From assembly GCA_964016885.1 (NCBI GenBank), contig OZ024746.1:74772001-74836000 (forward strand): a DNA stretch of 64,000 nucleotides, read 5' to 3'. The translations under genes were made by a program, and so were the position numbers. The notes under the pieces were generated by a model, which worked only from the letters and a program-made list of their open reading frames with translations, was not told where the DNA came from and did not search any database. Below are positions 14,876 through 23,355 of the stretch, in pieces. The first letter of the stretch is position 1; each line of letters opens with the position of its first letter. The stretch comes from Eledone cirrhosa (taxonomy: Eukaryota).

Positions 14876-15075
14876 ATGTAAACTATCGCCGTATTTTGAC
14901 TAAAGAAATTAAAGAAATTATTTAGCCTGATAGTGGGGTTAAGAGCCCTCGGAGAAATAGAAAACATGAGTATGTACGTCAATACTCATCTTTTTCCATT
15001 TCTCCGAGGGTTCTTAACCCCACTATCAGGCTAAATAATTTCTTTAATTTCTTTAGTCAAAATACGGCGATAGCT

Positions 15076-15080
<5 letters not shown>
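14876..15080. repeat. ~200-bp fold-back palindrome between TA tracts
   Basis: CTATCGCCGTATTTTGACTAAAG..GAGTAT pairs with ATACTC..CTTTAGTCAAAATACGGCGATAG; loop about 14974-14981. Confidence 0.95.
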
Positions 15081-15129
<49 letters not shown>

Positions 15130-15131
<2 letters not shown>

Positions 15132-17346
15132 AGACACCAACACACAATTTCAATACTTCATGACAACGATACACACTATATGCAAAAAGTTTGTCCCGGA
15201 GCAAAAGGCAAACAGACACAAAAATCTTATTCCCAAAGATAGGAAAATCCTTATGAGACGTAGAACCAAGCTCTCAAACCAGCTAAATGCACAACAAGAA
15301 AACAAAAACAAGAAGGAATCCTATTTGAAACGTGCACTACTTGACACCGAGATTGCACTCAAACTTTCCCATGAAAATGAGAGGGCAAAGAAAGAAAGCG
15401 GGGCCATAGAAAACATTAAAACAAATCCTAAGGCCTTCTTTAAATTTGCAAAAGAAACTGCCTCGGCATACTGCAAGATTGGGCCACTCTTCCATACAGA
15501 CGGTTCATTAACCGAGAATCCCCAAGAGATATGTGAAATACTGAACGAACAGTACAAAAGTGTCTTCACATGTCCACTGAGGCACATGCAAATAACAAAG
15601 CCAGAGGAGTTCTTTGATGCCACAACACTACATGAAGAAATGGCGACCATCAACCACATAGACATAACGGAGGAGGATGTGGTGTACGCCATAGATGAAA
15701 TTAGAACAGACTCAGCTGCTGGACCTGATGGATTCGCAGCAGTCCTCTTAAAAACATGTAAGCGGGCCTTAGCAACTCCACTGAAGACGCTCTTCAGAAG
15801 CTCCTCGGCTAGCGGTATACTACTCAGGGAGCTGAAAGAAGGCACAATATGCCCTATCCATAAAGGAGGTAGCAGAGCGGAGGCCAAAAACTATAGGCTA
15901 GTCTCCCTGACGTCGCATATCAGTAAGGTCATGGAGCGAGTCATCAGAAAGAAACTGATCACTTTCCTCGAGGAAAATGACCGCCTGACTAGCACGCAGC
16001 ATGGCTTCCGCCCAGGAAGAAGCTGCCTTACACAGCTGCTACATCACTACGACTGGGTACTGAAACGACTACTAGACAGCTCACATGTAGACGTGATATA
16101 TCTTGACTTTGCGAAGGCCTTTGACAAGGTCGACCACGGAATGATGTGTCACAAACTACACGGACTCGGCATAACTGGAAAAGTAGGTGAGTGGCTGCAT
16201 GACTTCTTAAAGGACAGAAGCCAGACAGTCGCAGCAAACGGGACCCTCTCAAAGGAAACATCAATAACAAGTGGGGTGCCCAGGGGACATTCCTGGGACC
16301 ACTACTGTTTTTGGTGACTCTCTCAGACATGCCCTCTGTAGTACATACAACAACATCCCTCACTAGCTATGCTAATGACACTAAGGTAGCACAGGCAATC
16401 AAAAACCCGGCTGACGCTGCCCTTTTACAACAAGATCTGGATGCCATATACAAATGGGCGGAAGAAAACAACATACAGTTTAATGTTGGCAAATTCCAAG
16501 CCCTACAATACAAACCTGCAAACACAAATACAGTACAACACAGTTACGCAGGTCCGGGAGGGACCGATATGCCCGTGTCAAAATCGATACGAGACCTGGG
16601 TATAGACATGAGCGATCATGCATCTTTTTCCTCACACATCATGAAAGTGGCGACAATGTGCAGACGACTCGCTGGCTGGAGGACTTTCCGAACAAGAGAC
16701 CGAGACACCATGTTGACACTATGGAGGAAATTTGTCCTAAGCCGCCTGGACTATTGCTCCCAGTTGTGGCCACCCCATAGTGTCAAACTAACCACGGAGC
16801 TCGAGGCAATCCAGCGGAGCTACACCAAGAGGATTGCCACGATGAAAGAGACAAGCTACTGGGAGAGGCTAAAAGAACTGAACCTCTACTCCTTGGAACG
16901 AAGACGGGAGAGATATGCAGTGATCTACCTTTGGAAAATCCTGGAGGGACTAGCACCAAACATTGGCATTGGGAGCTGGACCAACCGTCGAACAGGACGT
17001 CACTGTGTGGTGCCAAAGGTCCCGTCTTCCACATCTAGAATAAGGAGCAGATATTGCAATAGCCTGGGATTCAAGGGCCCTCAACTCTTCAACAAGCTGC
17101 CGAAGGATCTGAGAGATTTGCATGGTGTGGAGGGGGATGTCTTCAAGAAACATCTCGACACCTTGCTATCCAGGATCCTGGATGAGCCCACAGCAAGACA
17201 CGAGGGAAACCTAAGGGCAGTAGCAACAAACTCCCTCTTACACCATTGGCCAACCAATACAGGCTGAAGATAAAATGTGTAGCAGCAAGGGCGGTGCCCC
17301 AGGATGGCCTCAGCCGGATGGCTGGAACAGGTAAAAGAGTAAAAGA

Positions 17347-17541: not shown

Positions 17542-17701
17542 TATTATCGACTCTGTAAGGATGAAAGGCAAAGTTAACCTCAGTAGAGTTCAAATCCTGC
17601 CAAGTTTAACTTTGCCATTCATCCTTACGGGGGTCGATAAAATAAAGTACCAGTAATGCACTGGAATGATTGCTGGCTTTATGCCAAAAGTAGAAACAAT
17701 T
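17542..17701. mobile_element. Two SINE-A fragments in opposite orientation
   Basis: A minus fragment (17542-17585) is fused to a plus fragment running from the B box to the tail (17586-17701). Confidence 0.8.
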
Positions 17702-19089
17702 ATTTTATTAAATCTACTCATTTCTGAGTTAGTCAGGTTGAGTAGTCGGATGGTGGGTTTTCTTGCAAAGATAAGTTTGTGGTGTTTAAGAGAGAAATAC
17801 GTATCCCGAGGGATGAGTGGTTCCATATGGTTCTAGATCTTCAGATTCGATGTGATTCTATGCCCCTACTCGTTAATCTTATTAATCATGTGTGCATTCA
17901 ACTTTTGATAGGTTGAAGTGAAGCTATTATATATATATATTAATATAAGCAAGTATTGCACACAAAAAATAAAATTAAACGTCGTTGTGAAGAGATTAGG
18001 AATTTATTTGTCTACATATGCTGACTATAATATATATTGTTCAATAATATGCAATACTTAATTATTTATTACACTTCATCAGAAAGCCTATAGTAGTGGA
18101 ATTCAACTATTCACTACGCAGTAGAGAATAGTTTTATATATAAACTTAGGAAAATTAACAAAGAGAAGACAAGACAAAGAGGCTGAGGCGAATGGGGAGG
18201 AGGAAATGTTAGAATAAGAGAATTGCTCCAAGACGTTTGTTTTCTGTCTCCAATTAAAATAAGGTACTTCATGACTATGATCTATTTGAGTTGTTTCTCT
18301 TAGTGCATTATTATTATTTTTTTTTTTTTTTTACTTATTTAATTATGAAAAACAGAATACATCAAAGTAAATATATATTTGGGTAAATAAGGTGGGGTGA
18401 GGGAAAAGAATGGATAGTCACAGCTGGAATGCCTTTAATTATAGATCTGCTCGATTAAGACTTAACTGGGGTTAAACACCAACTACGACACAGCAGATAT
18501 ATACAAATATTATCGTTTTTCTACTTTTGATTGCGCTACTATAAGTATTCCCTTACTATTATTCCCTTACGTGATTTTGATATTATTCATTTTGAGAACA
18601 ATACCTTAATATCAATATGAGTGGCCAGTTACAGCTCGTTTGAACAGAAAGGGGTGAGAGAATTCTGGCTGGATACAGCCGGTTTAAATGCTAAATGTTT
18701 AAACATAATTGAATAACCACATATATGATAATTACTTGCGAGCAATAAATTAGTTGTTAATCATCTTTACAACGTGTCAGCGTTGTGGATTTATTCAATG
18801 TGGTAGAGAGGATCATATGATTTGGCATAGGTGAGGGCGGACTGAAGTGAAATATTTAGTAATTCTATTAATGGGATCAGAGCAAGAAGTGCCAAAAATT
18901 AGGTTCGTCAGCATACCAAACTGTTTGTTGAAAATATTTTATTTGGGAGAATGGGACGCAAAACTAGAAGAATGGGGAGCACAATGTAGAGCTAGGCTGG
19001 AGTACTAAATACCTAAACACCGGCTCTAGCACACACCACAAACTATAGCATTAGTACCATTATTTTAGTACCATTAGTACTATTACTAA

Positions 19090-22903: not shown

Positions 22904-23110
22904 CTAGACTCAGAGATGACTTGTAGTATATTTTCTGTTCTTTGAAATAGGAGTTCAAATGTCGCTGTGGGCTAGATGGGTGGTATACTTAATTCATCTC
23001 TCAGTTTAACCGCATCATCTGGCTCTTGGGGGACATTTAACGGAGGCCACATTGAGCAAATCTTCGGATTGAGAACGTCTTCCTATATATATATATATAT
23101 ATATATATAT

Positions 23111-23306
23111 AACGAAGGAAATGTGGTAAGGAACCAGATGGACCATAACGCACCAAAGTACTCAATACTTAGGGTAGTAGAGTGGGTAATAGGAACGAGT
23201 AGGGCCCCGACGGCTGAGCTCAAGCCGTTTCGACGGCTAATTCTGGACTCAGAATTAGCCGTCGAAACGGCTTGAGCACAGCCGTCGGGGTTCTACTCGT
23301 TCCTAT
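23111..23306. mobile_element. TA-inserted fold-back element with two hammerhead 3' halves
   Basis: Palindrome 23189-23306; each strand reads GAAA-cggc..gccg-TC-gggg; homologous to 53764-53957. Confidence 0.8.
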
Positions 23307-23355
23307 ATATATAGGAAGATCTTCGGATTGAGAACGTCTTCCTATATATATATAT

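What the first reader, a model, noticed from the sequence alone, without database searches (positions are those of the whole stretch)
23111..23306. Twin fold-backs (23k, 53.8k): same turn point, copy-specific arms
Both elements turn right after CGGCTA(A/T)TTCTGG, yet each right arm mirrors its own left-arm variants (CGAGTAGGGCCCC/GGGGTTCTACTCG versus AATGTATGACCCC/AGGGTCATACATG). Each keeps only hammerhead 3' halves, as if the turn lies in stem II. A diverged third copy at 12925 is not folded. This implies repeated snap-back at a programmed site, or an element whose palindrome is regenerated at each replication.
Basis: partly seen in the sequence, partly recalled or inferred. Interest (0 to 1): 0.78.

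Follow-up and report, generated by a model that had tools for sequence, protein, structure and literature searches.

The report
Mini head-to-head Penelope retrotransposon insertions
These fold-backs are two of over 13,000 tiny head-to-head fragments of a Penelope-like jumping gene in this genome, likely made when two reverse transcriptions run off the same, likely capped, start of the element's RNA and are joined, which would explain how this class builds its inverted ends.

Summary
The palindromes are real but not a self-regenerating element. They are ~195-bp, 5'-truncated head-to-head insertions of a 3.5-kb Penelope-like retrotransposon (Hydra-clade motifs, intact ORF elsewhere) in (TA)n; at least 13,443 such fold-backs exist in this genome. 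The layout (inverted arm, one-sided tail) is known for these elements, and this scan noted it before on two other genomes. The 'copy-specific' arm variants are mostly subfamily marks, and the turn is a ~12-nt zone, not one point. New here: arms stop at one base, the A of an initiator-like T(T/C)AGTC with a TATA-like box ~28 nt upstream and 41 nt from the ribozyme cut. The next base is often G (6,390 G vs 1,068 A), which the read-through copies seen never carry, although part of this G comes from the partner arm. Tail-less and tailed arms reach this end equally often, some arm pairs do not overlap, and unpartnered arms stop there too. Best reading: two cDNAs primed on both target strands run off a capped RNA start and are end-joined (about 0.6); snap-back remains a rival for part of the junctions. 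No RNA data were available.

The parts
23111..23249 (-). Copy 1, tailed arm: from the A of the initiator-like TAGTC (23249) through the hammerhead 3' half to the distal end
23111..23188 (-). Copy 1, 78-nt 'tail' between the proximal end (CCTAT) and the distal end (CGTTAT), present on this arm only
   Evidence: tail ends at +82 in 72 of 87 copies; both ends fall on TAT in the full unit
23194..23244 (-). Hammerhead 3' half (stem II 3' strand, GAAA, stem III with palindromic loop, GUC cut site between 23209 and 23208, stem I 3' strand); 5' half absent
   Evidence: fold of a read-through copy; 22 read-through copies aligned by pattern
23250..23250 (-). Junction base: G on the element strand, not present in read-through copies; candidate cap-derived base, but also the last base of the inverted arm (ambiguous in this copy)
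23250..23306 (+). Copy 1, tail-less inverted arm ending at CCTAT in (TA)n
   Evidence: 58 of 63 abutting inverted arms end here
23060..23110 (.). Left target: 24-bp unique stretch (23060-23083) plus (TA)n
23307..23342 (.). Right target: short (TA)n, a 5-nt inverted copy of target DNA (23314-23318), then the duplicated 24-bp stretch (23319-23342): target-site duplication with a small templated fold-back
   Evidence: sequence read directly
53763..53898 (-). Copy 2, tailed arm (different subfamily), ends 3 nt short of the initiator A
53899..53957 (+). Copy 2, tail-less inverted arm, 2 nt deeper than the tailed arm, with CpG-type decay; in (TA)n
12923..12980 (-). Copy 3: solo tail-less arm of a sister family; begins G-AGTC at the equivalent position and ends in (TA)n; no partner arm
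30690..32247 (-). Decayed ORF remnant of a related Penelope-like element (RT thumb, CxCX5C linker, GIY-YIG part), interrupted by a SINE piece; not physically part of the fold-backs
   Evidence: tblastn of the family ORF, 31-60% identity, E 1e-13 to 1e-27

Best explanation
The fold-backs are ~195-bp head-to-head fragments of a 3.5-kb Penelope-like retrotransposon inserted in (TA)n, whose arms stop at one initiator-like base, likely because two cDNAs primed on opposite target strands run off the likely capped 5' end of the element's RNA and are then likely end-joined. Shown: parent unit and ORF; two fixed outer ends (+5 and +82, both on TAT) that define the one-sided tail; a sharp inner limit at the A of T(T/C)AGTC; a G excess before it; independent, roughly symmetric trimming of the two arms; microhomology, A/T runs and templated filler at junctions. 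Inferred: (1) the element's promoter (TATA-like box ~28 nt upstream, initiator) starts a capped RNA at that A, inside hammerhead loop II, so this RNA lacks the ribozyme's 5' half; (2) the protein cuts both strands of (TA)n and primes reverse transcription at the two internal start sites, which lie only ~60 and ~140 nt from the cap; (3) both cDNAs run off the end ('strong-stop'-like), sometimes copying the cap as C or adding As; (4) the two 3' ends are joined by microhomology-mediated end joining, trimming one arm by 3-6 nt. When the same two sites are used in the downstream repeat of a tandem transcript, the products are the kb-long inverted insertions.
For: Parent: 3,528-bp tandem unit, 784-aa open frame, Hydra motifs. 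Copy number: 20,690 exact tail matches, 13,443 fold-back junctions. Of 85 tail-selected copies 56 end in the -49..-63 zone, 19 shorter, 3 at -64..-150, 7 read through; 63 of the 79 examined have an abutting inverted arm, 58 of these ending at the proximal site. In 31 of 37 junctions at least one arm reaches the initiator A or the base before it (my count). Base 5' of that A: G 6,390, A 1,068 of 32,819 arms; T in the first 100 of 5,440 read-through matches, T or C in 22 held read-through copies; both arms with G 396 loci, both with A 10. Sister family, first 100 of 373: 25 G vs 8 A by hand count. Two cDNAs: the G-bearing complete arm is tail-less in 15 and tailed in 15 of 30; tail-less arm deeper in 11 of 37 plus 7 copies; non-overlapping arms joined by microhomology at the initiator A (L149, L152); spacer of 0-2 nt between two complete arms in 29 of the first 50 double-G loci (hand count); solo arms end at the same zone (8 of the 16 copies without partner; L155, L157, L173; copy 3); kb-long inverted arms share the same outer ends (L137, L138, L139). 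Literature: a PLE protein cuts and extends both strands and starts at two internal sites flanking the tail (PMC11167929); untemplated 5' G marks capped L1/SVA templates (PMC4859970, PMC11702581); Penelope's promoter lies in the pLTR (PMC2377424).
Against: The G is often ambiguous: in 10-12 of 30 G-selected loci it continues the partner arm, about 8 more have a second reading (templated C subfamily, re-priming on the tail, the commonest double-G junction read as a 3-nt copied patch), and only about 12 have no other source (hand reading; the script lacked one subfamily and mis-sorted several). Among 52 unselected arms reaching the A, the next base was T 23, C 14, G 11, A 4, so G is not the majority. 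The commonest junctions would also be hairpins with 3-6-nt loops, and one class (7 of the first 50, hand count) matches snap-back at a built-in 4-bp inverted repeat. Copy 1's target carries a small fold-back of target DNA, so snap-back does occur. Later deletions in palindromes could mimic asymmetry. Promoter elements are consensus look-alikes only; no transcript was seen.
Confidence: 0.62

Rival explanations
1. Same element, but the inverted arm arises by snap-back: one cDNA stops in hammerhead loop II (RNA end or roadblock), folds on itself via 1-4-bp microhomology, copies itself back and is joined to the second target end at CCTAT by TAT microhomology.
For: Arms concordant by locus (49 of the first 50 double-G loci share the A/T subfamily mark); loops of 3-6 nt in the commonest junctions; a 4-bp inverted repeat flanks the initiator in C-type subfamilies and 7 of 50 junctions fit it; target fold-back at copy 1; templated filler.
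Against: Cannot give a tail-less arm that is more complete than the tailed one (15 of 30; 11 of 37 plus 7), non-overlapping arms, 0-2-nt spacers between two complete arms, solo tail-less copies and tandem arrays ending at CCTAT (L065, L133, L142) or rare subfamily-discordant arms (L067, L080), unless later deletion is invoked.
Confidence: 0.2
2. Two cDNAs as in the best explanation, but the inner limit is not a cap: it is a structural or protein roadblock in hammerhead loop II, or an uncapped processed RNA end, and the G comes from partner arms and terminal addition.
For: The limit lies just past the 3' strand of stem II; many Gs are partner-continuous; T runs are more common than G.
Against: Single-base sharpness at an initiator-like motif with a TATA-like box at the right distance; G over A also where the neighbour is filler or flank, in an A+T-rich genome; same base in a sister family with different loop sequence.
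Confidence: 0.13
3. The palindrome is itself a mobile unit (MITE- or foldback-like DNA element, or a non-autonomous RNA with a fixed hairpin) and junction variety comes from later central deletions.
For: High copy number, small size, some junction types recur.
Against: No side-specific arm lineages (short-short 6.3, long-long 4.5, short-long 5.5 differences); continuum from 15-nt to 3-kb arms with the same outer ends; both arms are pieces of the PLE leader; junction insertions as well as deletions; one-sided tail.
Confidence: 0.03
4. The turn is set by hammerhead self-cleavage.
For: A complete type I hammerhead with U3-A8 core is present in 20 of 22 read-through copies; 3 of 190 arms end one base from the cut site and 2 more could.
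Against: The turn is 41 nt upstream of the cut; 126 of 190 arms run through the cut and all of stem III; in PMC11167929 cleavage was not needed for insertion.
Confidence: 0.02

Closest known systems
Hydra clade of endonuclease-positive Penelope-like elements (Craig et al. 2021, PMC8557442), e.g. Hydra-1_Obim
   Same: Single ORF with RT and C-terminal GIY-YIG part, RWx, DKT, CxCX5C, CxxC and CxH motifs, hammerhead in the terminal repeat, (TA)n target.
   Different: Unit 3.5 kb with ~1.1-kb 3' UTR (Hydra generally <3 kb); RWR for RWK; distinct family from Hydra-1_Obim (2,507 bp, other hammerhead, 'no pLTR'; compared by eye with the supplement); U3-A8 core.
Inverted-pLTR (head-to-head) PLE insertions with one-sided 30-40-bp tail (PMC3846280; PMC8557442; D. 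virilis Penelope, PMC2377424)
   Same: 5'-truncated inverted copy abutting the direct copy, tail on one end, partial tandems, palindromic junction.
   Different: Tail is 78 nt; two thirds of sampled copies have both arms cut at one initiator-like base, giving >13,000 miniature palindromes; those papers (passages seen) suggest self-priming on an antisense template or leave the mechanism open.
Poseidon element of Anolis in vitro (Frangieh et al. 2024, PMC11167929)
   Same: Two internal RT start sites flanking the tail, near the RNA's pLTR-ORF junction; both strands cut and extended; A+T-rich target.
   Different: Here both start sites show TAT microhomology to the target; the paper (half of text read) does not derive inverted insertions or a capped run-off.
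L1 twin priming and cap-derived 5' G (PMC4859970, PMC11702581; twin priming itself recalled, seen only as a cited title)
   Same: Two target ends prime two cDNAs that are joined by microhomology; extra G at complete 5' ends.
   Different: In L1 the two cDNAs come from non-overlapping parts of one RNA and give an inversion; here they overlap and give a palindrome, at programmed start sites.
Animal non-LTR retrozymes (bioRxiv 10.64898/2026.07.22.740005)
   Same: Short PLE-derived, hammerhead-related, non-coding repeats.
   Different: Retrozymes are direct tandem repeats with complete ribozymes; these are inverted, dispersed, lack the ribozyme core and are probably dead on arrival.

Membership tests
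EN+ Penelope-like element | Single ORF with PLE-type RT and C-terminal GIY-YIG endonuclease | tested here: met
   784-aa open frame with YRDD, VIYQ...YIG; co-linear by eye with Hydra proteins in the supplement alignment. No Pfam or PDB hit; 646 unnamed homologues of ~700 aa.
EN+ Penelope-like element | Tandem/partial-tandem units forming pLTRs, inverted 5' copies, one-sided tail | tested here: met
   3,528-bp tandems, inverted arms of 15 nt to 3 kb, one end at +5 and the other at +82/88.
EN+ Penelope-like element | Type I hammerhead in the pLTR | tested here: met
   Fold and core in read-through copies; U3-A8 variant known from PLEs (PMC4209133). Activity not tested; no Rfam hammerhead among the 150 listed hits of the window.
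Hydra clade | RWK and DKT motifs, GxKF/Y not conserved | tested here: met
   RWR at 104, DKT at 184.
Hydra clade | CxCX5C linker; CxxC and CxH around the conserved E and N; no CCHH | tested here: met
   CNCPDRSIC 639, CNLC 737, CKH 765; absence of CCHH judged by eye.
Hydra clade | (TA)n insertion preference | tested here: met
   All 87 tail ends run into a TA run.
Hydra clade | Phylogenetic placement with reference Hydra RTs | not tested
   Reference proteins were readable in the supplement but could not be entered into tools.
Non-LTR retrozyme | Direct tandem repeats each with a complete hammerhead | tested here: not met
   Fold-backs are inverted and lack the core's 5' half.
MITE / foldback DNA transposon | Terminal inverted repeats around a fixed internal sequence, copied as a unit | tested here: not met
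   Asymmetric ends, variable centre, RT parent.
Capped-template run-off (as full-length L1) | Untemplated G at a fixed 5' base | tested here: inconclusive
   6:1 G over A and absent from read-through copies, but a third or more of sampled Gs may come from the partner arm.
Capped-template run-off (as full-length L1) | Transcript start mapped at that base | not testable with these tools
   No RNA holder listed.

The most novel reading that the evidence does not exclude
Penelope-like elements integrate by programmed twin priming: two RT start sites in the RNA leader are used on the two target strands, and when the protein uses the sites at the 5' end of a capped transcript both cDNAs run off the cap, leaving a mass of miniature 'strong-stop' palindromes whose junctions record the transcription start, the cap and the joining step; the promoter sits inside the hammerhead so that the element's own mRNA cannot self-cleave at its 5' end while read-through RNA can.
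Probability: 0.5. Interest if true: 0.75.

Novelty: new variant of a known kind. Interest (0 to 1): 0.55.

Why it matters
How Penelope-like elements make inverted terminal repeats and the one-sided tail is named as an open task in PMC8557442; PMC3846280 proposed self-priming on an antisense template; PMC11167929 gave in vitro start sites but no insertion model. This family offers more than 13,000 short, fully readable junctions in one genome that discriminate between the models, and already favours two sense-templated cDNAs. If the limit is the cap, the junctions also map the promoter inside the ribozyme and tie these telomerase-related elements to both L1 twin priming and LTR-type strong-stop DNA. 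Such copies would likely be mis-annotated as MITEs or hairpin RNAs. The layout itself is not new.

Tried and rejected
Whole-window repeat and Rfam scans were swamped by microsatellites. An apparent side-specific difference between arms in the 30 best hits was rejected as selection by the query: none of the long arms printed other than copy 1 has it. My first clade guess (Neptune) was dropped after reading the Hydra definition. Pfam and PDB gave nothing for the ORF. RNA runs: no RNA holder listed; contigs of four runs of unrecorded kind were laid but did not cover the flanks, so no empty site was seen. ADAR-type A>G excess between arms: not seen in 36 deviations. A peak of arm ends at the ribozyme cut: at most 5 of 190. 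Target-site duplications outside (TA)n: only copy 1 and one weak case among the copies scanned. A second start 4 nt upstream (G-ATTTT-AGTC in 3 loci) and a possible ~65-nt leader intron (+25 to +88) that would remove an upstream ATG were noted, not tested. An oriented genome-wide junction count could not be run; an unoriented one was. Energy z-score of the leader fold is not significant (-0.12). Paper searches for a published twin-priming or cap model of PLE inverted repeats found none in the held library; subscription papers (e.g. Arkhipova 2006, Evgen'ev papers) and bioRxiv supplements are not covered.

Full report
Observation. Both fold-backs are in the sequence: 59-nt arms with 54 complementary positions centred at 23247/23248 and 58-nt arms with 52 centred at 53899; the copies are 87% identical over 196 nt and sit in (TA)n. 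Each has a further 78 nt on the left arm only. The third copy (12923-12980) is 76% identical over 59 nt and unpartnered. Copy 1 has a 24-bp target-site duplication (23060-23083, 23319-23342) plus a 5-nt inverted copy of target DNA.

What it is. The window lies in a 3.0-Gb animal genome; SINE pieces in it look octopus-like to me (recalled, not tested). A 36-nt piece of the left-arm extension has 20,690 exact matches, control 0. I read the first 30 listed places and 55 of the remaining 70 (85 copies). Reading the element on the window's minus strand, 72 of 87 copies (85 plus the two here) end at the same base, +82 from a CCTAT landmark, and run into (TA)n. Seven of 85 continue upstream for over 330 nt; following these led to an RT frame and to tandem arrays of a 3,528-bp unit with a 784-aa open frame, first Met at residue 68. 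The protein has RWR, DKT, YRDD, CxCX5C, VIYQ..YIG, CxxC and CxH, the diagnostic set of the Hydra clade of Penelope-like elements, which also target (TA)n and carry hammerheads (PMC8557442 section 11). Pfam and PDB gave no hit; 646 unnamed homologues exist. A different Hydra family is listed for Octopus bimaculoides in that paper's supplement. Read-through copies hold a full type I hammerhead, U3-A8 core in 20 of 22, a variant described for PLEs (PMC4209133, part 1 of 4 read). The fold-backs are therefore pieces of the pLTR/leader.

The fold-back family. An exact pattern across the turn finds 13,443 loci, control 0. Of 79 copies examined for it, 63 have an abutting inverted arm; 58 of these end at CCTAT (+5), 2 at +82, 3 internally. 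Long insertions show the same: inverted arms of 0.1-3 kb, one end at +5, the other at +88. This is the known PLE layout of an inverted 5'-truncated copy and a one-sided tail (passages of PMC3846280; PMC8557442; PMC2377424). This scan noted the same layout on two other genomes (unchecked notes).

Arms go by locus: own-arm distance 2.8 vs 5.5 to other loci, 0 of 10,000 permutations (n=38). But the marks are subfamily blocks (13 of 38 share copy 1's), and within subfamily the signal is weak (p=0.024, n=27). Two copies have discordant arms (L067, L080). Turn points are neither one point nor scattered: 56 of 85 tailed arms end at -49..-63, 19 shorter, 3 at -64..-150, 7 read through (four copies sorted by hand). 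In 37 junctions called base by base the tailed arm is deeper in 17, the tail-less in 11, equal in 9; junctions show 1-7-nt overlaps, A/T runs and templated filler.

What sets the limit. In 31 of those 37 at least one arm reaches position -55/-56 (my count), the A of T(T/C)AGTC, and matches beyond it are mostly T runs or the partner arm. The motif resembles an initiator (consensus recalled) and a TATA-like TATTTAAATA lies ~28 nt upstream; it is in loop II of the hammerhead, 41 nt upstream of the cut site; 126 of 190 arms run through the cut site and stem III and at most 5 end near the cut. Genome-wide 32,819 arms reach the A; the base before it is G in 6,390 and A in 1,068, while read-through copies have T (first 100 of 5,440 matches; that pattern misses a C-type subfamily) or T/C (22 held copies). 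Both arms carry G at 396 loci, both A at 10. The sister family of copy 3 stops at the equivalent A, with 25 G and 8 A in the first 100 of 373 matches (hand count). An untemplated G at complete 5' ends is read as the copied cap in L1 and SVA (passages of PMC4859970 and PMC11702581). Against: in 30 G-selected loci 10-12 Gs continue the partner arm, about 8 are ambiguous and about 12 have no other source (hand reading); among 52 unselected arms the next base was T 23, C 14, G 11, A 4; the commonest double-G junction can be read as a copied 3-nt patch. Copy 1's own G is ambiguous. So the fixed end is shown, the cap is likely, not proven. No RNA could be examined.

One cDNA or two. Snap-back of the tailed cDNA requires the tailed arm to be the complete one. 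Instead the G-bearing complete arm is tail-less in 15 of 30 and tailed in 15 (the tail split was checked by eye, the script's partner labels were wrong for L145 and L164); in 7 more copies the tail-less arm is at least 15 nt deeper; L149 and L152 have non-overlapping arms joined by microhomology exactly at the initiator A; 29 of the first 50 double-G loci have 0-2 nt between two complete arms (hand count); solo tail-less arms and tandem arrays also end at +5; and 8 of 16 unpartnered tailed arms stop in the same zone. In vitro a PLE protein cuts and extends both target strands and starts at two internal sites that bracket the tail (PMC11167929, parts 1-2 of 4 read). Both ends here fall on TAT, matching the target. 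In favour of snap-back for a share of copies: 3-6-nt loops, a 4-bp inverted repeat around the initiator in C-type subfamilies (7 of 50 junctions fit), and the target fold-back at copy 1. Later deletions inside palindromes cannot be excluded.

Mechanism (inferred steps). The pLTR promoter starts a capped RNA at the initiator A; the protein binds the leader, cuts both strands of (TA)n and primes at +5 on one strand and +82 on the other; with the cap only ~60 and ~140 nt away both cDNAs run off; their 3' ends are joined by microhomology-mediated end joining. One RNA could serve twice, or two RNAs from the same source; either gives by-locus concordance. Use of the same sites in the downstream repeat gives long inverted or tandem insertions. 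The mini copies lack ORF, promoter and ribozyme core and are probably dead.

Novelty. Family: new member of the Hydra clade by motifs (no tree). Layout: known. The fixed inner limit at an initiator with G excess, the arm symmetry and the two-cDNA run-off model were not found in the held library (searches); an octopus repeat paper lists active Penelope families without these features (passages of PMC13282606); the retrozyme preprint (part 1 of 5; supplements closed) concerns direct tandems. Older subscription papers are not covered and may hold such a model. Verdict: real, explained as to identity (about 0.97), mechanism about 0.6, new variant of a known kind, interest 0.55.

Noticed in passing
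window 30690-32247 (-) and 17692-17934 (-): Decayed ORF remnants of related Hydra-type Penelope-like elements (31-60% identity to the family ORF); the first is interrupted by a SINE piece near 31070-31135.
   Followed up: partly
window 14926-17267 (+): LINE reverse transcriptase (Pfam RVT_1) in two frames.
   Followed up: no
window 23307-23342: Target-site duplication preceded by a 5-nt inverted copy of target DNA plus (TA)n: the target strand seems to have folded back to regain a TA end before priming.
   Followed up: partly
L133 leader, +25 to +88 from CCTAT (window equivalent about 23111-23170, -): Possible ~65-nt intron (GT ... pyrimidine tract, TAG) that would remove an upstream ATG at +47; the distal RT end lies next to its 3' splice site. 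D. virilis Penelope has a 75-bp leader intron. Untested.
   Followed up: no
L061, L081 (read-through copies of copy 1's subfamily): Hammerhead core C3 with A8 (mismatch) instead of U3-A8, suggesting some source copies spread with an inactive ribozyme.
   Followed up: no
G000 C1:91.47-91.49 Mb, C2:51.27-51.29 Mb, C1:437.2 Mb (L133-L136, L140): Tandem arrays of 3-4 near-identical full units with intact 784-aa frames; many intact copies genome-wide, so the family is very young or active. L136 has a 55-bp tandem expansion at the array's 5' junction.
   Followed up: partly
L137, L138: Near-perfect 6-kb palindromes (two ~3-kb arms, 99.3-99.6% to the unit) stable in the assembly.
   Followed up: no
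L021, L026, L035, L102, L105, L177: Copies of this and sister families inserted back to back in each other's (TA)n flanks, forming clusters.
   Followed up: no
window 53270-53380 and 54215-54310: Two copies of a common SINE flank copy 2; also an N gap near 34340-34540 and very long TA-rich arrays at 3100-6000 and 60600-61200.
   Followed up: no
runs X5, X6: Two other organisms hold contigs of the same leader including read-through sequence, so the family occurs in related species.
   Followed up: no
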